This document shows, piece after piece, positions 1-10,048 of a stretch of DNA of 64,000 nt (its first letter is position 1; every line of letters begins with the position of its first letter). The position numbers and the translations under genes were made by a program. The notes beneath the pieces are model-generated. The model saw only the letters and a list, made by a program, of their open reading frames with translations, had not been told where the DNA came from and did not search any database. The DNA is from an uncultured Azospirillaceae bacterium (lineage in GTDB: Bacteria > Pseudomonadota > Alphaproteobacteria > RF32 > CAG-239): NCBI GenBank assembly GCA_964410325.1, contig CAYPFN010000004.1:1486-65485 (forward strand), in the 5' to 3' direction.

Positions 1-687
1 AAACCGAACAATTCAACATCATAACGGCGGCGACCGAGTTCGGTGCCAGAAACGATATTACCCCATTGGTCAGCGCCGGCAATCTGCGCGCGGCAGCCAT
101 ATTTTTGATAGAGCACGCAAAAATCATAACCTTGCAGAAGTTGATAATTAAACTCTAAAAAAGACATTGGTTGTTCACGTTCTAAACGACTTTTAACGCT
201 ATCCATCGTCAACATACGATTAACCGAATAACATGTACCGATATCGCGTAAAAATGCCAAATAATTAATATCTTTAAACCAATCCCAGTTATCAACCATT
301 TCCGCAGCATTTACACCGTTTTCAAAATTTAAAAACTTGCGAAAAGATTTTTTTAAGCCCTCCGTATTATGCGCCAAAGTTTCTTCGCTTAAAAACGGGC
401 GCAGTTTATCTTTGCCCGATGGATCGCCTATGCGGGCCGTGGCACCGCCGACTAATGTTAATGGTTTATGGCCGCATTTTTGAAACCAGCGTAGCATCAT
501 AACCGGCACAATATGTCCAACATGAAGACTATCGCCAGTAGGATCCGAACCTAGATAGCCGACGGCGGGAATACCTTTTTTTTCGCAATCGGCAAGATAC
601 TCATCAAAACCACTGTCGTTAGTACATTGATTATAAAAGCCGCGTTCAACCATAATATTTAAAAATTCGGATTTCCAAGTGCTCATT
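1..687 (-). CDS. tyrS: Tyrosyl-tRNA synthetase, N-terminal part (gene continues beyond window start)
   Basis: Reverse-strand translation from ATG at 685-687 begins MSTWKSEFLNIMVERGF..GSDPTGDSLHVGHIVPVMMLRWFQKCGH. This carries the class I HIGH-type motif (HVGH) typical of TyrS. Absent from the ORF track because it runs off the window edge. Confidence 0.75.
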
Positions 688-761
688 TTTCTTTCCTTTA
701 TACTAAATTTTAACGCATATTAGCATATATTTGCAACATTGCAAGAAGCGAGGTAAAATTT

Positions 762-1871
762 TTGACAATGATGATAAAGCCTTTAAATGTGCTCGGCTTG
801 ATGGGCGGAACTTCTTTAGACGGTATTAAAGCTGCCTTGATTTCAACCGACGGCGTGGATATTTATGAGGTTAAAAATGCGCGAAATTTCATTTATCCAG
901 ATGGGCTTATACAAAAAATCCGTTCGGTTTTTGGTATGCATTATTCTAATCCTGAAGAACAAGAAAAAATTGATGCCGTGGAAGCAGAGGTAACAGATTT
1001 TTTATGTGAAATAGTATCTGAAATTAATGCTGAAACTTCTGAAACCATTGATGTTGTTGGTCTTGAAGGGCCGACCATCTGCCACGAGCCGGAAAATGGT
1101 TATACTTATCAACTTGGTAAGGGGCAGACGTTGGCAGAAAAAACCGGTATAAAAGTTATTACTCATTTTAGAAATGCTGATATTTTAAACGGCGGGCAGG
1201 GTTCGCCGATTACGGCAACATATTACAGCGCCTTAGCACAAGGGCTTGAAAAACCTAATGTGTTTATTAACATAGGTGGCATTACAAATCTTATTTGGAC
1301 CGGCCATTTAGGAGAAATCGTAGCATTTGACTGCGGGCCGGGAAACGCTTTAATTAATGATTGGGTTTTTAAACACGGCGGTATGCAAATGGATTTCAAC
1401 GGTAAATTAGCCGCAACTGGAACTGTTCATGAGAAAATTATCAATCAAATGATGAAACATGATTTTTTTGCTAAATATCCGCCGAAATCACTTGACCGAA
1501 ATTCGTTTAACGATAAAACCGAACATCTGGAAGGTTTATCTTTGGAAGACGGCGCGGCGACGGCCACCGCTTTTATAAGCGAAGCAATTGCTTACTCTCT
1601 TGCCCTTTATTTGCCGGAAGTTCCAGTTTGTGCCGTACTTTGTGGCGGCGGCGCGCAAAATCCGACATTGGTACGTTTTATTCGCCAGCATTTAAAAAGT
1701 ATGAAAATTGAATCGGTTTTAGAAGATGTTTTTGATTTTAAAATCGGCGATGCTCCAGCTATTGCTTTTTTAGCAATGCGCCGGCTCTATTCTTTACCGA
1801 TAACTTTTCCGACAACGACGGGAATTGCCCAACCGATGATCGGCGGAAAAATTTATGAGAAGGATACTTAA
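762..1871 (+). CDS. anmK: Anhydro-N-acetylmuramic acid kinase
   Basis: 369-aa ORF. The N-terminal GLMGGTSLDGIKAAL and overall length fit AnmK, and tyrS is adjacent as in many alphaproteobacteria. Confidence 0.8.
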   Translation: MTMMIKPLNVLGLMGGTSLDGIKAALISTDGVDIYEVKNARNFIYPDGLIQKIRSVFGMHYSNPEEQEKIDAVEAEVTDFLCEIVSEINAETSETIDVVGLEGPTICHEPENGYTYQLGKGQTLAEKTGIKVITHFRNADILNGGQGSPITATYYSALAQGLEKPNVFINIGGITNLIWTGHLGEIVAFDCGPGNALINDWVFKHGGMQMDFNGKLAATGTVHEKIINQMMKHDFFAKYPPKSLDRNSFNDKTEHLEGLSLEDGAATATAFISEAIAYSLALYLPEVPVCAVLCGGGAQNPTLVRFIRQHLKSMKIESVLEDVFDFKIGDAPAIAFLAMRRLYSLPITFPTTTGIAQPMIGGKIYEKDT

Positions 1872-1873
1872 AC

Positions 1874-2590
1874 ATGAAAGAATCTATTCAAACACAGAAT
1901 TTAAGCAAAGTTTACGGCAGTCTAAAAGCCGTGGAAAACTTTACTTTTTCTGCACAAAAAGGCGAAGTTATCGCCCTTTTAGGCCCAAACGGTGCCGGAA
2001 AATCAACTTTAATGAATATGATTACTGGATTTTTAGCACCCACTGCTGGAAAAATTTTTATTAATGGTTTGAATATTGCAGAGTATCCGTTGGAAACTAA
2101 AGCTAAAATCGGTTTTTTACCTGAAGGCTCGCCCTTGTATCCGGATATGAGCGTTAAAATGTTCTTGCATTATATGGCTGATTTACGGCAAGTTGGAAAA
2201 AAGGAAATTGAACACGCTATAGAATTGGCGAATATTGAAAATGTTCTAAAACAAAAAATTGAAACATTGTCTAAAGGATATCTCCGTCGCGTTGGTTTTG
2301 CCCAGAGTATTTTAAGCAATCCGGACATTTTATTGCTGGACGAACCGACTGATGGGCTTGATCCAAATCAAAAAGAGCATATGCGGCGGTTGATTGCGCA
2401 AATGGGAAAAGATAAAACTATCTTGATTTCTACGCATTTGCTGGAAGAGGCGGAAACAATCTGCACGCGTATTATCTTAATTAACAAAGGAAAAATTATG
2501 GCTGACGGCAACTGCAGCAAAATCTTGCAAAAAGCCAAAACTAAAAATCTGGCCGAAGCATTTAAAAAACTGACACAAGGCACAGAATAA
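1874..2590 (+). CDS. ABC transporter ATP-binding protein (partner of downstream ABC-2/GldG-like fusion)
   Basis: Walker A GPNGAGKST, signature LSKGYLRRVG, Walker B LLLDEPTDGLD. Its start is 3 nt after the anmK stop. Confidence 0.8.
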   Translation: MKESIQTQNLSKVYGSLKAVENFTFSAQKGEVIALLGPNGAGKSTLMNMITGFLAPTAGKIFINGLNIAEYPLETKAKIGFLPEGSPLYPDMSVKMFLHYMADLRQVGKKEIEHAIELANIENVLKQKIETLSKGYLRRVGFAQSILSNPDILLLDEPTDGLDPNQKEHMRRLIAQMGKDKTILISTHLLEEAETICTRIILINKGKIMADGNCSKILQKAKTKNLAEAFKKLTQGTE

Positions 2591-2620
2591 CAGAGATTTT
2601 ATCTAAAAGAGGACAAGCAT

Positions 2621-5600
2621 ATGAAAGGTTTATGGATTGTAACAAAAAATGAACTGTTGCGCTATTTCATTTCACCACTGGCGTATGTTTATTTGATGTC
2701 TTTTTTAATCTTAAACACGGCGATGGCTTTTTATTTTGGAAACTTTTTTGAACGTGGGCAAGCTTCCCTGCAAGTAATGTTTGCTTTTCAGCCTTGGCTT
2801 TACTTATTGTTTATACCAGGGATTTCCATGCGTTTATGGGCTGAGGAATTTCGAACCAAAACAATTGTACAAATTATGACTATGCCGGTTTCAATTGAGG
2901 TGTTGGTGTGGGGAAAATTTTTGGCCGCATGGTTGTTTTGTGCCCTAGCGCTTATTTTAACTTTCCCATTTTGGCTGACGGTGAATATGCTTGGTGCTCC
3001 TGATAATGCTGTTATTGCTGTCAGTTATGCCGGTAGTTTTGTTCTGGCGGGTTGCATGCTTGCCATTTCGCAAACCATGTCTGCTTTGACCAAAAACCAA
3101 GTTATCGCTTTGGTGCTTTCTGTAGCGGCAAATTTAATGTTTTTTTGGAGTGGCGTAGAATTTATTTTATCTTTTTTCCGGTTGTTTTTACCTGATTATA
3201 TGATTGATGCTATTGCTTCTTTCAGCTTTTTAACACACTTCAGCAGCATTACTGGCGGTTTGCTTGAACTGCGTGACGTTTTATTTTTTGCTTCCATCGT
3301 TATTTTGTTTAATTTCACTACAGTTTTGATTGTCAGTTTCCGCACGGCAGGCACTTCTTCTTGGTTAAAATCGACCAATCGCCCCTATTATATTTCCGCG
3401 TGGATAATGCTGGTGCTGGGATTTATGGGCTTTAATCTGCTGGCCAACAATCTTACCCGTGGCACACAAATAGATTTCAGCGAAGACGCAATTTATACAC
3501 TTAACAAAGATACGGTCATGACGTTGCAAAATTTAACCGAGCCGGTTACTGCCAAATTATATTATTCAACAATTTTGGAGCAACGCAATCCGATTATGCG
3601 CCAGATGTTTGATAAAATTCGTCAGCTTTTGGCGCAGTATAAAACTCATTCCAATGGTAGATTTGATTACCGGATTTATCATCCGCAAAATCTTGATAAT
3701 GTTGAAGATCGAGCCATTGCCGACGGTATTCAACCAATACCTTTAATTGACATTAATCAAAATGCGTTGTTTGGCTTAACCGTTACCGATACGCTACAGA
3801 ATAAAAATGTTATTCCTTATTTTACGCCGGCTCGAATGGCTTTTTTGGAGCAGGATTTAACTTCTCTTATTTATCAGCTGGGGCGTGAGAAAAAAACAGT
3901 GGCAGTCTTATCAACATTGCCGATTAACGGCGGTGGCACTGACAGCATGATATTGCAGCCCTGGGAAATCACCCGGCAGATTGGAATGTTTTACAATGTT
4001 CGTTATATTCAAAAACCGGAAGATTTGGATGATCATCCAGATGTGCTTATTCTTATTCATCCGCAAAACATTGGTTCGGGAATGGCCGAAGCTATTAAAA
4101 AATATTCGCAAAATTATGGGAATATTCTTTTGCTTTTGGACGGAGCCGCAGAGGCGCCAAGGCTTTATTCTTCGGTAAACCTTCCCTTTCAGGCATCAAA
4201 CTTAAACGGGCTTGATGAGTTTTGGGGAATTCGTTTTTATAATGAATATGTGGTGGCGGATTTGGATAATTCTATTACTGTAGATGCAACCAGCAATTAT
4301 AAAAACAATCCCGCTTTTACACAGGATATCATTCAATTTAAACTTAAAAAAGAAAACTTTAATCCGAAACATCCAGTTAGCAAAAACTTACAAAGCATGC
4401 TGATGTCATCCGTTTCCGTAATTATGCCGATAAGCCGTGATATTGAATTTATTCCGCTTATGCAGGCCAGCAACAATTCTTCTTTAATGCCTATCAAAGT
4501 TGTGTACGACGGTTTAAATCCACGGCAAGTATTAACATATTTCCAGGCAGATGACAACCCAAAGATTTTAGCGGCGGCTATTCATGGCAAAAAACCAGAT
4601 AATCAATTTAATATGATTGTGGTCGGAGATACGGATTTTATTTATGATAATTTTTGGGTAACATCACAGACAATTTTGGAGCGAACATTTTTTATTCCGT
4701 TGTTTAATAATGCCGACTTTATCTTAAACAGTCTGGATTATCTGACGAATAATAGAGATTTATTGGAGCTACGCGGTAAAAGTGCCCGCAGCCGCGAGTT
4801 TTCAGATATTGAAAAACTGCGTAAACAAAACGTCTTCCTATATAAAATTAAGGAAGAAAAAATTTTTACACGGATGAACAATGTTAAAAATCAGTTACAG
4901 GAAATTTGGAGTAAGCGGGATTTTGAAGAGCGCGAAATTTTTACTGCCGACGAACTGGCTCTTATCAGTAGCATTCGTAAACAATTGGAAGAACTCCGAC
5001 AAGAATTAAGCAATATCCGCTTGCAAGCCAACCGCGATATTAGTCAAATTGCCGCAAAAATTAAATTTATTAATATTTTTGCCCTACCGTTAGTATTAAG
5101 CTTGATATTGCTGATTTTTCTGTGGTTAAAAAAAGACAAAAGAACTTATGGAACGCCTCTTAAATTTAATCGAGCGTTATTGAAACTCTTTCTGACGGCC
5201 GTTGCCGTACTGTCAGCTGGTATTGCTTCCGTTTATTTTTCCAATCTGTCAGATATTCAGAAATATGAAGATAAACCTCTGTTTCCGAAATTACCTGAAC
5301 AAATTAATCAGATGCAGTCAATCATCATCAAAAACAATAAGCATAGTCTTCATTTTATTAACGATAAGGGAATATGGAAGATTGAAGAACATTCCGATTT
5401 TCCTGTTTTTCAAGAACGCATCCGTAGTTTTTTGAGCGCCTTGATAGAAGCCAGATTTTATGAGAAAAAATCTGATAAAGCTGAAAATTTGGCCTTGTTT
5501 GGTTTACAGCCGATTGAAGTTGAAAATTCACCTAATACAAGGATTGAGCTTTTAAATACCGATAGCAATCCGATTTTAAGTTTTGAAGTAGGCAAATACA

Positions 5601-6070
5601 ATATAGACCTTGGGCGAGGCTCTTATGCCGCGTATGTTAAATTTGACGGACAGTTTCAAGTTTGGTTGGCAGAAGCTGATTTTATAGACCTCTCAACCGA
5701 TTGGCAAAAATGGACATACAGTCGCATTTGGGATTTACGGTTCGGACGCTTAGAAAGCGTCAATGGCATTAGCGATGTTGATAAGCTTGCCGATATCATG
5801 AGGATCTTTTTAAATACACCGTTTTATTCATCCGTGCCGGAACTTGAAAATCCTAAAAAATTGCTGGATTTGCAAATTATGGCTGAATATGACAACCAGA
5901 TAAAAATCAGTTTTTATAAATATGCTGAAAAGTTTTGGGTAAAATATGAGTTTGAACGTCCGGCGCAAGGAAAACATTTGCAATTTTATGAGCCTTATGT
6001 TATGGGGCGCTTTTTAGAAATTTCCGCAACGGATTGGGAACAGATAAAAAATGTCGCATGTTTTGACTGA
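2621..6070 (+). CDS. Fused ABC-2 family permease / GldG-like ABC auxiliary domain / DUF4340-like C-terminal domain (1149 aa)
   Basis: The N-terminal ~240 aa carry multiple hydrophobic helices (ABC-2 permease like GldF). The middle has a GldG-like periplasmic region followed by a TM anchor (FINIFALPLVLSLILLIFLWL). A long C-terminal soluble domain follows. Confidence 0.65.
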   Translation: MKGLWIVTKNELLRYFISPLAYVYLMSFLILNTAMAFYFGNFFERGQASLQVMFAFQPWLYLLFIPGISMRLWAEEFRTKTIVQIMTMPVSIEVLVWGKFLAAWLFCALALILTFPFWLTVNMLGAPDNAVIAVSYAGSFVLAGCMLAISQTMSALTKNQVIALVLSVAANLMFFWSGVEFILSFFRLFLPDYMIDAIASFSFLTHFSSITGGLLELRDVLFFASIVILFNFTTVLIVSFRTAGTSSWLKSTNRPYYISAWIMLVLGFMGFNLLANNLTRGTQIDFSEDAIYTLNKDTVMTLQNLTEPVTAKLYYSTILEQRNPIMRQMFDKIRQLLAQYKTHSNGRFDYRIYHPQNLDNVEDRAIADGIQPIPLIDINQNALFGLTVTDTLQNKNVIPYFTPARMAFLEQDLTSLIYQLGREKKTVAVLSTLPINGGGTDSMILQPWEITRQIGMFYNVRYIQKPEDLDDHPDVLILIHPQNIGSGMAEAIKKYSQNYGNILLLLDGAAEAPRLYSSVNLPFQASNLNGLDEFWGIRFYNEYVVADLDNSITVDATSNYKNNPAFTQDIIQFKLKKENFNPKHPVSKNLQSMLMSSVSVIMPISRDIEFIPLMQASNNSSLMPIKVVYDGLNPRQVLTYFQADDNPKILAAAIHGKKPDNQFNMIVVGDTDFIYDNFWVTSQTILERTFFIPLFNNADFILNSLDYLTNNRDLLELRGKSARSREFSDIEKLRKQNVFLYKIKEEKIFTRMNNVKNQLQEIWSKRDFEEREIFTADELALISSIRKQLEELRQELSNIRLQANRDISQIAAKIKFINIFALPLVLSLILLIFLWLKKDKRTYGTPLKFNRALLKLFLTAVAVLSAGIASVYFSNLSDIQKYEDKPLFPKLPEQINQMQSIIIKNNKHSLHFINDKGIWKIEEHSDFPVFQERIRSFLSALIEARFYEKKSDKAENLALFGLQPIEVENSPNTRIELLNTDSNPILSFEVGKYNIDLGRGSYAAYVKFDGQFQVWLAEADFIDLSTDWQKWTYSRIWDLRFGRLESVNGISDVDKLADIMRIFLNTPFYSSVPELENPKKLLDLQIMAEYDNQIKISFYKYAEKFWVKYEFERPAQGKHLQFYEPYVMGRFLEISATDWEQIKNVACFD

Positions 6071-6105
6071 ACATTATAATCGACTTAAAAAACGGCGACA
6101 TATAA

Positions 6106-6282
6106 ATACATTTAGAACTTGATGGTAAATTAACGCTTAATAAAGCGTATGAACTGACGGATATGGTAGAAGACAAAATCAAGACAGTTTTTCCTGACGA
6201 GCAAGTGATTATTCATCATGATCCTTACAGACCACATGAAAATCGGCTGAATTACACCATTGAAGGCAAGCGCGGTTTTTAA
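6106..6282 (+). pseudogene. Remnant of a cation diffusion facilitator (CDF) transporter, C-terminal ~55 codons only, with no start codon
   Basis: The stop-to-stop frame translates to LDGKLTLNKAYELTDMVEDKIKTVFPDEQVIIHHDPYRPHE.., which resembles the CDF cytoplasmic C-terminal domain (..L.v.eaH.i.d.ie..i...fp....v.iH.eP). No upstream in-frame start or TM region is present. Confidence 0.4.
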
Positions 6283-6623
6283 ATACAGCGTTCAAATTTA
6301 TAAAGATTAAACACGTATAAATCAACTCTATTTTGGTTTTAGCGGCTGGTTTGCCGCTATAAACAAAGCCATCTTGCAAAATCGGCTATTATAGAGCTGA
6401 TAAAATTACTGGCGAATATGAATACTAGAAATTTCATTAATCCTTAGAAAAAGTCCTCAAGGATTTTTTCTTTTTTTATTATTTATCCAAATTTCTCCTA
6501 ACGGCGTATTTAACCAGCACCTGACCAAAGTTTTCCCACTATTTGAAATAATATCCCAGATCCTCGTCACTTTTCCAAACATCACTCGTATAATGTCAAT
6601 AATTTTCCCATTAATACACTAAA

Positions 6624-6649
6624 AGCTCCTTAATTAGAATTAAGGAGCT
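6624..6649 (-). terminator. Hairpin terminator downstream of the 136-aa ORF
   Basis: 10-bp perfect inverted repeat with a 6-nt loop, followed on the minus strand by TTTT. Confidence 0.45.
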
Positions 6650-6650
6650 T

Positions 6651-7061
6651 TCAGCCAAGTCTTAAAAACGGGCGGGTATAAGCATGTTGGCTTTCTTCTA
6701 TATATATTTCCCGTCCCGACGAAAAATCTAACCCTTGACGTATGTCAAAATCTACCTTCGTTCGACCCCAATATTTATTCTTGTGCAGGGGCGGAAGATT
6801 TAACATTGTCAAGGTTTGATCAACCTCTTCCCTGTAATCAAGCAATATTTGCAGTTGCTTGCTATTAGGGATAACCCAGTACAAATTGCCAATATCCAGT
6901 TCATAGCACATTTTACTGGCTTCTCTCCAACGTAATTTCGGCAAATCTTTAACATATACCGCAACCTCATCTCCTTTGAGGAAAATGGCTACTGGTTGAG
7001 AATTTTCAAGATATCGAGATTCGCCATTTTCGTACAAAACCATTAAAGGTAATTTATCCAT
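6651..7061 (-). CDS. Hypothetical protein (136 aa)
   Basis: Clean ORF with a perfect 10-bp hairpin (agctccttaa/ttaaggagct) immediately downstream at 6624-6649. No recognisable motif. Confidence 0.45.
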   Translation of the reverse strand: MDKLPLMVLYENGESRYLENSQPVAIFLKGDEVAVYVKDLPKLRWREASKMCYELDIGNLYWVIPNSKQLQILLDYREEVDQTLTMLNLPPLHKNKYWGRTKVDFDIRQGLDFSSGREIYIEESQHAYTRPFLRLG

Positions 7062-8205: not shown

Positions 8206-8712
8206 CTATTTTTTGCCGCATTTGGCGCTTATAGCGTTATAAGCCCGGGTAAAACCAGAAAGGGAATAAGTGTCTTTGGTTTTGGTTCCCCGAGAGGACA
8301 CGCCGTTAACAATCATGCGCTGTCCACGTTTCATGGCCGCCACCAGCGCTTTATCGTCTTTTTCGGTTAAAGTCCAGGCTTTATCATCATCAATAAAAAA
8401 TTTATCAAATGTCTGCGTACCGATTTTAACCGTCACTTTGGCGCTTTTTTGATATGTATAACCGGCTACCAGATTAAAAACGTCAAAACTGTTTTCTCCT
8501 GGACGATGGGTTACAACGGCATAAATATCGCCGCGGCGGGTATATTTTCCTTCATCTCTTTTAGGGACAGAGGCCATATAACAAACGTTTTTTCCGTTTT
8601 CTTTATAGGTGTATGCTACCCAATCGCCATATTCGCCGATTAAACGTGGCGCCTCTATGGCGTAAGACGCTTTTGTAAACAAAAAAGTTGCTAAAATTAA
8701 ATACTTAAACAT
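8206..8712 (-). CDS. ialB: Invasion-associated locus B (IalB) family protein
   Basis: Likely start at the internal Met (MFKYLILATFLFTKASYA, a signal peptide). IalB-like EYGDWVAYTYKENGKNVCYM...VVTHRPG...VNGVSSRGT. The track ORF extends to 8853 in AT-rich sequence. Confidence 0.65.
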   Translation of the reverse strand: MFKYLILATFLFTKASYAIEAPRLIGEYGDWVAYTYKENGKNVCYMASVPKRDEGKYTRRGDIYAVVTHRPGENSFDVFNLVAGYTYQKSAKVTVKIGTQTFDKFFIDDDKAWTLTEKDDKALVAAMKRGQRMIVNGVSSRGTKTKDTYSLSGFTRAYNAISAKCGKK

Positions 8713-8815
8713 TTTAAAATACCCACATATTTCAAATTTGATGAAAATATTGATTGCATTATAAATATAAACTGTTAAAAGAAAGCAAATATTTGAATCT
8801 TTTTGGAGCTCAAGT

Positions 8816-10048
8816 ATGATTCGACCAGAATATTTGGATATCAATAAAATCATTTCCGATAAAAGTATTTTAAAGTTGTTTCGTGCCGTTGCTGATCACG
8901 GTGGCATATTGCGGTTTGTCGGCGGCGCCGTACGTGATGTCTTAGCTGGATTGAAAGGTTTTGAAATTGATTTAGCCACTGATTTAACACCCGATGAGTT
9001 GGTTGAGGCTTGTCAAGACGCCGGATTAAAAACTGTACCGATCGGTATAAAATTTGCCATAACTGGCGTTGTTATAAATAATAAAATTATTGAAGTTTCC
9101 TCTCTGCACAGAGAACGTAAAGGTTATGCTTTAAATTCTGAATTTACTTTTACGGACGACTGGATTGCCGATGCCTCAAAACGCGATTTAACAATCAACG
9201 CTGTTTACGCCGATGAAAAAGGCAATGTTTTTGACTATTACAACGGCATTGATGACTTAGAACAGGGAATTATACGTTTTATCGGCAACGCTGATGATCG
9301 GATTAAGGAAAACCATATACGAATTATGCGCTTTTTCAGATTTTATTCAATTTTTGGGAAAAAAGCCCCTGATTTAAAATCTCTCAAAGCTTGTGTTGAA
9401 AATCGGGATTTGTTAAAAGATGTGGCGATTGAGCAGGTTCGCGACGAATTGTTTAAAATTTTACTGACGCCCAATGTTGTCAAAACCCTTCGTATGATTT
9501 TTGAAAATGATATTCTAAGTTACATTTTGCCAGTTTCGCCACATTTGGATGAGCTACAACGGCTTTCTGATATTATCATGAAAAACAATTTTGAACCCGA
9601 CGCCTTACGGCGGCTTTACGTACTTTATCATCCGGATAAAATGCTGGCGGAAAATCTGGCGATACGCTTACGTTTGACTAAAGAACAGAAAAACCGGCTG
9701 ATTAATTGGACAAAGTATGATTTTGACCACCGGCAGGCAGCTGATAATAACACATTGAAACAAGCTGTTTATTTATATGGGAAACAATTTTGCAAAGATA
9801 AACTTTTGTTTGATGCCGCACAAAACGGTACGGAACTTCTTTCTTTACCGGAAATTTTTGCCGAGATTGACCGTATAAACATTCCGCGGTTTCCGATTTC
9901 TGGCAACGATTTAATTGAAATAGGTATTCAGGATAAGGGAAAAATCGGCAAACTGCTAGGTGTTTTAAAAAACGAATGGATAAAAAGCGGATTTTCCATC
10001 ACATATCAACAACTTTCAGACCTTGCTAAGCTATTTATAAAACAATAG
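8816..10048 (+). CDS. cca: CCA-adding tRNA nucleotidyltransferase / poly(A) polymerase family protein
   Basis: 410 aa, GGAVRD motif (FVGGAVRDVLAG), and DLTINA for the nucleotidyltransferase head domain. Confidence 0.75.
   Translation: MIRPEYLDINKIISDKSILKLFRAVADHGGILRFVGGAVRDVLAGLKGFEIDLATDLTPDELVEACQDAGLKTVPIGIKFAITGVVINNKIIEVSSLHRERKGYALNSEFTFTDDWIADASKRDLTINAVYADEKGNVFDYYNGIDDLEQGIIRFIGNADDRIKENHIRIMRFFRFYSIFGKKAPDLKSLKACVENRDLLKDVAIEQVRDELFKILLTPNVVKTLRMIFENDILSYILPVSPHLDELQRLSDIIMKNNFEPDALRRLYVLYHPDKMLAENLAIRLRLTKEQKNRLINWTKYDFDHRQAADNNTLKQAVYLYGKQFCKDKLLFDAAQNGTELLSLPEIFAEIDRINIPRFPISGNDLIEIGIQDKGKIGKLLGVLKNEWIKSGFSITYQQLSDLAKLFIKQ

What the first reader, a model, noticed from the sequence alone, without database searches (positions are those of the whole stretch)
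1874..6070. Giant fused ABC-2 permease / GldG-like / DUF4340-like protein with dedicated ATPase
In Bacteroidetes, GldA (ATPase), GldF (ABC-2 permease) and GldG (auxiliary) are separate gliding-motility proteins. Here a single 1149-aa polypeptide appears to combine a GldF-like permease, a GldG-like periplasmic domain, a TM anchor and a long extra C-terminal domain. It is translationally coupled to a GldA-like ATPase and sits directly downstream of anmK. The substrate is unknown. Such fused GldFG-like systems in alphaproteobacteria are uncharacterised and may export a surface polymer or lipid.
Basis: partly seen in the sequence, partly recalled or inferred. Interest (0 to 1): 0.5.

Follow-up and report, generated by a model that had tools for sequence, protein, structure and literature searches.

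The report
Three-in-one ABC transporter membrane subunit
A gut alphaproteobacterium encodes, next to its ATPase, one 1149-residue membrane protein that joins three subunits of a widespread but unstudied ABC transporter which other bacteria make as separate proteins; this shows the three parts work together, but the cargo is still unknown.

Summary
Window 1874-2590 encodes a 238-aa ABC ATPase with intact motifs. Window 2621-6070 encodes a 1149-aa protein with nine predicted TM helices. Its parts, in order, are a GldF/NosY-like ABC-2 (type V) permease, a GldG-like periplasmic block (DUF7088 + ABC_transp_aux/GIFT fold) held between two TM helices, and a TM-anchored DUF4340 domain.

The domain order matches a four-gene operon found elsewhere (ATPase / ABC-2 permease / GldG-like / DUF4340), so the protein is a colinear fusion of three genes. 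The fusion is real: proteins of about 1150 aa occur in more than 100 independent assemblies, and all domains are conserved.

The host is an uncultured gut/rumen alphaproteobacterium, not Bartonella. GldF-GldG and GldG-DUF4340 double fusions also exist. None of the parts reaches the NCBIfam GldA/F/G equivalog cut-offs, so this is not the Bacteroidetes gliding transporter.

No family member has a solved structure or a known substrate. The most likely function is an ATP-driven exporter or mechanotransducer that acts on an envelope component. Relatives are already in databases as 'Gldg family protein'. The main value is evidence that DUF4340 is a true, stoichiometric subunit. Interest is modest.

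The parts
762..1871 (+). anmK (anhydro-N-acetylmuramic acid kinase). It is the upstream neighbour, probably in the same operon, and is not shown to be part of the transporter.
   Evidence: Pfam AnmK 223.6 bits. NCBIfam NF007141 360.6 bits, above the cut-off of 352. A 2-nt gap separates it from the ATPase start. It lies directly upstream of the ATPase in 52 of 80 related loci.
1874..2590 (+). ABC ATPase (nucleotide-binding subunit), 238 aa, GldA-like but short
   Evidence: Pfam ABC_tran 107.8 bits. The best NCBIfam model is GldA at 260 bits, below the equivalog cut-off of 402.6, covering model positions 2-233 of 301. Motifs present: Walker A GPNGAGKS at aa 37, LPE at 82, signature LSKG at 132, Walker B plus catalytic Glu ILLLDE at 152, H-loop TH at 187. 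It lies directly upstream of the fusion gene in 78 of 78 loci that have upstream DNA.
2621..3343 (+). Fusion protein aa 1-241: ABC-2 / type V exporter transmembrane domain (GldF/NosY-like), 6 TM helices
3389..3454 (+). TM7 (aa 257-278), which corresponds to the N-terminal anchor of stand-alone GldG-like proteins. The first fusion seam is at aa 242-256.
   Evidence: Hydropathy. The stand-alone GldG-like protein in L084 has an N-terminal TM at aa 13-41, and its residues 22-592 align to fusion residues 262-819.
3482..3766 (+). DUF7088 domain (aa 288-382), periplasmic
   Evidence: Pfam 58.9 bits, cut-off 27.8. Weak Foldseek matches to thioredoxin-like folds. There is no Cys in the periplasmic part.
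3890..4732 (+). ABC_transp_aux / GIFT domain (aa 424-704), GldG-like, periplasmic
4802..5065 (+). Long helical hairpin ('stalk', aa 728-815) leading into TM8
   Evidence: AF2 helices 728-768 and 776-833. Faint DUF7615 match.
5066..5233 (+). TM8 (aa 816-834), short positively charged cytoplasmic loop (835-852) and TM9 (853-871). This is the second fusion seam, joining the C-terminal anchor of GldG to the N-terminal anchor of DUF4340.
   Evidence: Hydropathy, with 6 K/R in the loop. It is the least conserved segment, at 39% identity. The TM helices of the stand-alone proteins map onto it.
5234..6070 (+). DUF4340 region (aa 872-1149) plus the stop codon: periplasmic, three alpha/beta modules
6106..6270 (+). 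Remnant (last 55 or so codons) of the cation-diffusion-facilitator gene that follows and overlaps the fusion gene in relatives. It is not functional here.
   Evidence: tblastn with relatives' CDF proteins matches only their residues 252-306. The intact gene has Cation_efflux plus ZT_dimer domains. It is present downstream in 67 of 80 loci.

Best explanation
The locus encodes a two-gene ABC machine: a 238-aa ATPase and a 1149-aa membrane subunit.

Shown: the large protein is a colinear fusion of three subunits that other bacteria encode as adjacent genes. They are (i) an ABC-2/type V exporter permease of the GldF/NosY family, (ii) a GldG-like protein whose periplasmic DUF7088 and GIFT domains are held between two TM helices, and (iii) a TM-anchored periplasmic DUF4340 protein.

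Inferred from ABC architecture: two fusion chains, each with one 6-TM domain, pair with two ATPases. The periplasmic GIFT and DUF4340 modules are therefore fixed at 1:1:1 with the permease.

Inferred from the type V fold, from the absence of a solute-binding-protein fold, and from the absence of catalytic residues (no Cys) in the GIFT domain: ATP hydrolysis drives either outward extraction of a membrane-embedded (lipidic or lipid-linked) envelope component onto the periplasmic scaffold, or a NosDFY-like conformational change passed to that scaffold. It is not a gliding-motility protein. The substrate is unknown.
For: Colinearity with split operons. In L084 the genes are ABC_tran 324 aa / ABC2 244 aa / DUF7088+ABC_transp_aux 624 aa / DUF4340 336 aa. 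L091 has the same four genes, and L085 has a truncated DUF4340 ORF after the GldG-like gene. BLASTP maps the L084 permease residues 1-241 to fusion 1-241 (50% identity), its GldG-like residues 22-592 to fusion 262-819, and its DUF4340 residues 69-186 to fusion 915-1031. The TM anchors of the split proteins map to TM7, TM8 and TM9.

Other fusion combinations exist. Many GldF+GldG proteins of 820-900 aa occur (Hyphomicrobiales, Devosia, Methylohalobius), GldG+DUF4340 fusions occur (P0180, 938 aa), and distant triple fusions of about 1014-1032 aa (P0149, P0182) carry a weak, sub-threshold DUF4340 match; two others of similar length, P0161 and P0177, show none.

All domains are conserved, and the seam is the least conserved part. 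The ATPase is adjacent in 78 of 78 loci and has intact motifs.

An independent preprint predicts a DUF4340 protein as a subunit of a four-gene ABC complex in SAR11-related HIMB59 (doi 10.64898/2025.12.11.693642).
Against: No substrate, transport direction or phenotype is known for any non-Bacteroidetes member. No family member has a solved structure.

The AF2 full-length model is only moderate. Its pLDDT is 71 and pTM 0.52, with the TMD at 50-60, so the arrangement between domains is not reliable.

The Pfam ABC-2 match in the window protein itself is below the gathering score.

Some GldF-GldG fusion systems have no adjacent DUF4340 gene, so DUF4340 may not be universally required.

The homodimer stoichiometry and the lipid-like substrate are inferences, not observations.
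Confidence: 0.6

Rival explanations
1. It is a NosDFY-like mechanotransducer rather than a transporter of a membrane substrate. ATP-driven movements of the permease are passed to the periplasmic GIFT/DUF4340 scaffold, which loads or matures a periplasmic or outer-membrane client, possibly one related to metals.
Against: There is no NosD, NosL or NosZ-like gene in the locus. In this window the CDF gene is deleted while the ABC genes stay intact. ABCG and ABCA lipid exporters match the TMD equally well.
Confidence: 0.2
2. It is functionally tied to peptidoglycan recycling, for example by moving anhydro-muropeptides or a cell-wall precursor, because it is co-transcribed with anmK.
For: anmK lies 2 nt upstream of the ATPase and is in this position in 52 of 80 loci, down to 43% identity. 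In the other synteny form, murQ-rlmB precedes the ATPase.
Against: L019 carries murQ, tyrS and anmK together. The two forms therefore look like derivatives of one ancestral neighbourhood, not independent associations. More distant systems have unrelated neighbours such as proS, glycosyltransferases and AcnX. ABC-2 permeases are not known muropeptide importers (established knowledge).
Confidence: 0.08
3. It is an ABC importer in which the GldG-like domain is the substrate-binding protein, as the NCBIfam name for GldG suggests.
For: NCBIfam TIGR03521 is titled '...substrate-binding protein GldG'.
Against: The periplasmic core has a GATase1-like/GIFT fold, not a periplasmic-binding-protein fold. 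The TMD has the type V exporter fold (ABCG/ABCA/NosY/CcmB), not a type I-III importer fold.
Confidence: 0.07
4. It is an orthologue of the Bacteroidetes GldA/GldF/GldG transporter and serves gliding motility or type IX secretion.
For: GldA, GldF and GldG are the best-scoring NCBIfam models.
Against: All three scores fall far below the equivalog cut-offs: 260 against 402.6, 124 against 288.5, and 60 against 389.85. All relatives are Alphaproteobacteria. Flavobacterial gldF-gldG operons are described without DUF4340.
Confidence: 0.02
5. The long ORF is an artefact, for example a lost stop codon or frameshift in this assembly.
For: None was found.
Against: The same length (1140-1164 aa) is seen in more than 100 clusters and 80 genomes. 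An independent contig is 99.7% identical with no indels. All domains are conserved.
Confidence: 0.01

Closest known systems
Split four-gene operon ABC ATPase / ABC-2 permease / GldG-like (DUF7088+ABC_transp_aux) / DUF4340. Examples are loci L084 and L091 here, the SAR11-related HIMB59 complex in bioRxiv 10.64898/2025.12.11.693642, and P. aeruginosa PA4040, annotated as DUF4340 in PMC8088628.
   Same: It has the same four modules in the same order, with the same TM anchors. Identity to the window protein is 50% for the permease, 29% for the GldG-like protein, 29% for DUF4340 and 44% for the ATPase.
   Different: In the window, the three membrane and periplasmic genes are one polypeptide. The ATPase is short: 238 aa against 317-324 aa in the two split operons L091 and L084. 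That PA4037-PA4039 form the rest of the Pseudomonas operon is my recollection and was not tested here.
GldF-GldG double-fusion proteins ('Gldg family protein', 820-900 aa) of Hyphomicrobiales, Devosia and Methylohalobius
   Same: They join an ABC-2 permease to DUF7088 and ABC_transp_aux in one chain, with a short ATPase directly upstream. Identity is 27-33% over aa 1 to about 840.
   Different: They have no DUF4340 domain, and in L081 no adjacent DUF4340 gene either.
Flavobacterium johnsoniae GldA/GldF/GldG gliding-motility ABC transporter
   Same: These are the best-matching curated models for all three modules. GldG has the same plan of two TM helices around a large periplasmic loop. The substrate is also unknown.
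   Different: The scores are far below the equivalog cut-offs. The Flavobacterium proteins are separate polypeptides with no DUF4340. That system belongs to Bacteroidota and is linked to T9SS and gliding, whereas this one is in gut Alphaproteobacteria.
NosDFY (PDB 7o12, 7o0y), ABCG/ABCA lipid exporters, PmtCD and CcmAB: type V ABC systems
   Different: There is no detectable sequence similarity apart from a faint CcmB match (E 0.035). The periplasmic partners are different.
GIFT domains of IFT52 (PDB 5fms) and OST48/WBP1 (6s7o, 6c26)
   Different: Those are eukaryotic scaffold subunits with no link to ABC transporters. The similarity gives no enzymatic or ligand information.

Membership tests
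Bacteroidetes GldA/GldF/GldG gliding transporter (NCBIfam equivalogs TIGR03522, TIGR03518, TIGR03521) | Whole-protein score at or above the curated equivalog cut-off for each subunit | tested here: not met
   GldA 260.1 against 402.6, GldF 124.4 against 288.5, GldG 60 against 389.85.
Bacteroidetes GldA/GldF/GldG gliding transporter (NCBIfam equivalogs TIGR03522, TIGR03518, TIGR03521) | Occurs in Bacteroidota | tested here: not met
   Nearly all of the 80 closest genome loci are titled as uncultured (Alpha)proteobacteria or Rhodospirillales-like bins; a handful of bins carry other names (Lachnospiraceae, Eubacteriales, Bacteroidaceae x2, [Ruminococcus] gnavus, Lactobacillaceae), which I take to be mis-binned contigs because their genes are 51-72% identical to the query and share its synteny.
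Bacteroidetes GldA/GldF/GldG gliding transporter (NCBIfam equivalogs TIGR03522, TIGR03518, TIGR03521) | Genome carries the other gld/spr/T9SS genes | not testable with these tools
   Whether T9SS/gld genes are absent from the whole genome cannot be tested from a 64-kb window.
Bacteroidetes GldA/GldF/GldG gliding transporter (NCBIfam equivalogs TIGR03522, TIGR03518, TIGR03521) | Required for gliding motility | not testable with these tools
   This needs genetics in a cultured organism.
ABC-2 / type V ABC exporter permease | Six TM helices with an N-terminal amphipathic helix and short external helices between TM5 and TM6 | tested here: met
   Hydropathy. AF2 helices at 2-17, 19-44, 50-79, 92-112, 129-153, 160-176, 180-211 (three short helices) and 217-241.
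ABC-2 / type V ABC exporter permease | Sequence-profile membership | tested here: inconclusive
   Pfam ABC2_membrane_4 scores 19.9, below the gathering score of 27, in the window protein. However, the GldF model matches end to end at E 7e-36, and many close homologues carry a recorded PF12730 (ABC2_membrane_4) hit.
ABC-2 / type V ABC exporter permease | Fold similarity to solved type V TMDs | tested here: met
ABC-2 / type V ABC exporter permease | Adjacent ATPase with intact Walker A, Walker B, signature and H-loop motifs | tested here: met
   Adjacent in 78 of 78 loci.
GldG-like / ABC_transp_aux (PF09822, GIFT domain) proteins | Pfam score above the gathering score, preceded by DUF7088 | tested here: met
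   121.2 against 34.7, and 58.9 against 27.8.
GldG-like / ABC_transp_aux (PF09822, GIFT domain) proteins | GIFT (GATase1-like, non-catalytic) fold | tested here: met
GldG-like / ABC_transp_aux (PF09822, GIFT domain) proteins | Large periplasmic loop held between an N-terminal and a C-terminal TM helix | tested here: met
   TM7 at 257-278 and TM8 at 816-834 match the TM helices of the stand-alone L084 protein. The sidedness is predicted from charge bias, not measured.
DUF4340 (PF14238) | Pfam score above the gathering score | tested here: met
   45.9 against 25, although only profile positions 1-118 of 183 match.
DUF4340 (PF14238) | N-terminal TM anchor, and encoded immediately after a GldG-like gene | tested here: met
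   TM9 precedes the domain. In three of three split loci with downstream DNA, a DUF4340 ORF follows the GldG-like gene.
NosDFY copper-enzyme maturation system | NosD beta-helix partner and a nosZ/nosL gene context | tested here: not met
   No such genes occur in window 1-10 kb or in related loci.
Binding-protein-dependent ABC importer | Periplasmic-binding-protein fold and a type I/II importer TMD | tested here: not met
   The folds found are GIFT/GATase1-like and type V exporter.

The most novel reading that the evidence does not exclude
The fusions observed (F+G, G+DUF4340 and F+G+DUF4340) would mark the ABC-2/GIFT/DUF4340 module as an obligate, fixed-stoichiometry envelope machine that is widespread in diderm bacteria. 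It would move a lipid or glycolipid from the inner membrane toward the outer membrane, as a so far unrecognised counterpart of Lpt, Mla and Lol.

Three observations fit this reading. The module is retained in small gut alphaproteobacterial genomes. A DUF4340 gene is reported as essential in Verrucomicrobium spinosum (PMC12283558). One split operon lies among GT4 and GT9 glycosyltransferase genes (L091).
Probability: 0.2. Interest if true: 0.7.

Novelty: new variant of a known kind. Interest (0 to 1): 0.3.

Why it matters
The GldAFG-type ABC transporter has lacked a known substrate since it was linked to gliding motility by work published between 1997 and 2002 (cited). Its relatives outside Bacteroidota have not been studied at all.

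A natural single-chain version helps in three ways. (1) It gives Rosetta-stone evidence that DUF4340 is a true subunit, present at 1:1:1 with the permease and the GIFT-domain protein. This supports a recent prediction made only by structure modelling. (2) It fixes the membrane topology of all three parts. (3) It offers a convenient two-gene construct for cryo-EM and biochemistry.

It does not reveal the cargo. The proteins are already in public databases as 'Gldg family protein'. The finding is useful annotation, not a discovery of a new kind of system.

Tried and rejected
- Sequence searches of the PDB, with both the single protein and a 27-sequence profile, found nothing beyond a faint CcmB match.
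- The afdb50 fold library was unavailable.
- Literature searches for DUF4340, GldG-like, COG3225 and PA4037-PA4040 found no functional study outside Bacteroidota. One badly designed multi-term search returned only noise. The original gldF/gldG paper is not held.
- A spacer value of -3462 nt in my script suggested a four-way ATPase fusion in L066. Inspection showed a normal stop codon, so it was a script artefact.
- P0164, an apparent stand-alone DUF4340 protein 45% identical to the tail, is a gene call at the start of a truncated contig. It is not a split version.
- The promoter and terminator scan found no more sites than shuffled sequence gives. Rfam found only distant tRNAs.
- The link to peptidoglycan recycling was considered and downgraded, because the anmK and murQ contexts trace to one ancestral neighbourhood.

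Full report
**1. The observation**

The window has three tightly packed genes on the + strand:
- anmK at 762-1871
- a 238-aa ABC ATPase at 1874-2590
- a 1149-aa ORF at 2621-6070

The anmK stop and the ATPase start are 2 nt apart. The ATPase stop and the start of the large ORF are 30 nt apart, and that spacer contains AAGAGGA. 'Translationally coupled' is therefore loose for this window. In 77 related loci the ATPase-to-permease spacer ranges from -8 to +27 nt.

The ATPase has intact motifs: Walker A (GPNGAGKS), LSKG signature, Walker B plus catalytic Glu (ILLLDE) and the H-loop.

**2. Domain content**

Pfam places three domains above their gathering scores in the large protein: DUF7088 (aa 288-382), ABC_transp_aux (424-704) and DUF4340 (919-1047). 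A weak ABC-2 match covers 18-168.

NCBIfam matches the GldF model end to end over aa 6-238 (E 7e-36). It also matches GldG, and GldA for the ATPase. All three scores are far below the equivalog cut-offs (124 against 288.5, 60 against 389.85, 260 against 402.6). The proteins are homologous to the Bacteroidetes gliding transporter but are not members of that equivalog group.

**3. Topology**

Hydropathy and AF2 secondary structure give nine TM helices:

| Segment | Residues | Feature |
|---|---|---|
| TM1-6 | within 12-241 | ABC-2 core |
| TM7 | 257-278 | anchor |
| periplasmic block | 279-815 | 537 aa |
| TM8 | 816-834 | anchor |
| loop | 835-852 | 18 aa, 6 K/R |
| TM9 | 853-871 | anchor |
| tail | 872-1149 | 278 aa, periplasmic |

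With the N-terminus in the cytoplasm, as in ABC-2 permeases, both large blocks face the periplasm. This sidedness is predicted, not measured.

**4. The fusion is real**

Homologues of 1140-1164 aa at 53-100% identity fill the top 120 hits. All 80 genome loci returned carry the gene; 77 cover it essentially end to end (query residues 1-4 through at least 1142) and three (L008, L030, L070) are cut by a contig end. An independent Logan contig differs from the window at 21 of 7092 positions, with no indels.

Every domain is conserved across a 27-sequence alignment: TMD 78% mean identity, DUF7088 68%, GIFT 59%, helical stalk 58%, DUF4340 50%. The TM8-loop-TM9 segment is the least conserved, at 39%, as expected for a fusion seam.

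**5. Host**

Nearly all of the closest genomes are uncultured gut or rumen (Alpha)proteobacteria. Examples are RUG and UBA bins, 'Proteobacteria bacterium CAG:495', 'Azospirillum sp. 51_20' and Candidatus Scatocola, which NCBI taxonomy places in Rhodospirillales. A handful of loci come from bins with other names (Lachnospiraceae, Eubacteriales, Bacteroidaceae, [Ruminococcus] gnavus, Lactobacillaceae); I take these to be mis-binned contigs, because their genes are 51-72% identical to the query and keep the same neighbours.

**6. Origin of the architecture**

An exhaustive HMMER scan of 1.84 billion cluster representatives found 9820 relatives. The best 150 fall into clear classes:
- About seven 50%-identity clusters of full triple fusions (about 1150 aa), plus two shorter clusters (P0129, 1099 aa, with DUF4340; P0131, 1033 aa, with no detectable DUF4340 domain)
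- Many GldF+GldG double fusions (820-900 aa, 27-33% identity), named 'Gldg family protein' in Hyphomicrobiales, Devosia and Methylohalobius
- Many stand-alone GldG-like proteins (about 620-660 aa)
- GldG+DUF4340 fusions (P0180, 938 aa)
- Distant proteins of about 1014-1055 aa, two of which (P0149, P0182) carry a weak, sub-threshold DUF4340 match at the C-terminus while two others (P0161, P0177) show none

Gene contexts show the unfused state. In L084 and L091, four adjacent same-strand genes encode ABC_tran, an ABC-2 permease (244-250 aa), DUF7088+ABC_transp_aux (624-627 aa) and DUF4340 (336-357 aa). In L085 a truncated DUF4340 ORF follows the GldG-like gene.

BLASTP maps the L084 proteins colinearly onto the window protein:
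- Permease residues 1-241 align to fusion residues 1-241 (50% identity).
- GldG-like residues 22-592 align to 262-819 (29%).
- DUF4340 residues 69-186 align to 915-1031 (29%).

Their TM anchors correspond to TM7, TM8 and TM9. The window protein is therefore a colinear fusion of three neighbouring genes. One double-fusion system (L081) has no adjacent DUF4340 gene, so that subunit may not be universal.

**7. Folds**

The protein has Cys only at positions 107, 145 and 1147. The GATase-like and thioredoxin-like periplasmic modules therefore have no catalytic cysteine.

**8. Neighbourhood**

tyrS lies divergently upstream, at 3-707 on the - strand. Two synteny forms exist in the clade:
- Form A: tyrS(-) | anmK-ATPase-fusion, in 52 loci.
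- Form B: [murQ-]rlmB-ATPase-fusion, in 25 loci.

L019 carries murQ, tyrS and anmK together. The two forms are therefore best read as derivatives of one ancestral neighbourhood, and the link to peptidoglycan recycling is weak.

A CDF metal exporter gene overlaps the 3' end of the fusion gene in 67 of 80 relatives. In the window only its last 55 or so codons remain, at 6106-6270. The independent contig carries the same deletion.

**9. Mechanism**

Shown: the module composition, its order, the predicted topology, the adjacent ATPase with intact motifs, the fold classes, and the co-inheritance or fusion of the three membrane parts.

Inferred: a dimer of fusion chains with two ATPases. ATP-driven action is directed outward, because the TMD has the type V exporter fold and there is no binding-protein fold. 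The action is either extraction of a lipidic or lipid-linked envelope component onto the periplasmic scaffold, or NosDFY-like mechanotransmission to that scaffold. The substrate is unknown.

One split operon lies among GT4 and GT9 glycosyltransferase genes, and a DUF4340 gene is reported as essential in Verrucomicrobium spinosum. These are hints toward an envelope role, not evidence.

**10. Literature**

[quoted passage not shown] DUF4340 appears in only four held papers. One is a 2025 preprint that predicts a DUF4340 protein as a new subunit of a four-gene ABC complex in HIMB59. Another annotates P. aeruginosa PA4040 as DUF4340. No functional work on PA4037-PA4040 was found.

**11. Verdict**

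The protein is a new architectural variant, a triple fusion, of a known but uncharacterised transporter family. Its relatives are already deposited as 'Gldg family protein'. Its main value is Rosetta-stone support for DUF4340 as a stoichiometric subunit, together with a convenient two-gene construct for structural work. Interest is 0.3.

Noticed in passing
window 6071-6650 (remnant at 6106-6270, + strand): Only the last 55 or so codons of a cation-diffusion-facilitator gene (Cation_efflux + ZT_dimer) remain. In relatives the intact gene of about 309 aa overlaps the stop of the fusion gene, and it is present in 67 of 80 loci. A deletion of about 750 nt starts just after the fusion's stop codon. 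An independent Logan contig (L088) has the same deletion.
   Followed up: yes
related loci L046, L050, L052, L058, L059, L062, L065, L066, L071, L073 (upstream of the ATPase); L019: In the branch that lacks anmK next to the ATPase, the upstream genes are murQ (MurNAc-6-P etherase, above the equivalog cut-off) and rlmB. L019 has murQ, tyrS and anmK together. Two enzymes of MurNAc recycling therefore flank this transporter in the clade, probably as the legacy of one ancestral neighbourhood.
   Followed up: partly
window 6651-7061 (- strand): A 136-aa ORF has a sub-threshold Lcl_C match (25.7 bits, cut-off 34.9). It is found only in the four closest relatives (L001, L002, L004, L035), and its function is unknown.
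   Followed up: partly
window 1874-2590: The ATPase (238 aa) lacks the C-terminal 65-90 residues that are present in the GldA model (301 positions) and in the ATPases of the split operons (317-324 aa). The Methylohalobius double-fusion system also has a short ATPase (235 aa), whereas the Devosia double-fusion system has a long one (331 aa).
   Followed up: no
L091 1-8158: A split ATPase/permease/GldG-like/DUF4340 operon is flanked by two GT4 glycosyltransferase genes upstream and a GT9 (heptosyltransferase-family) gene downstream. This may hint at a glycolipid or LPS connection, but it is a single example.
   Followed up: no
window 762-771: The anmK ORF is listed from a TTG at 762 (MTMMIKP...). 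ATG codons at 768 and 771 are possible true starts, because the AnmK profile match begins at residue 10.
   Followed up: no
window 6446-6471 (+ strand): A hairpin of 11 base pairs followed by a T-run lies after the CDF remnant. It could be the operon terminator, but the number of terminator-like sites in the region is no higher than in shuffled sequence.
   Followed up: no
window 8206-8853 (- strand) and 3-707 (- strand): An IalB-family protein (62 bits) lies at 8206-8853. The 5' part of tyrS (86% identical to the L014 gene) lies divergent from anmK at 3-707.
   Followed up: partly
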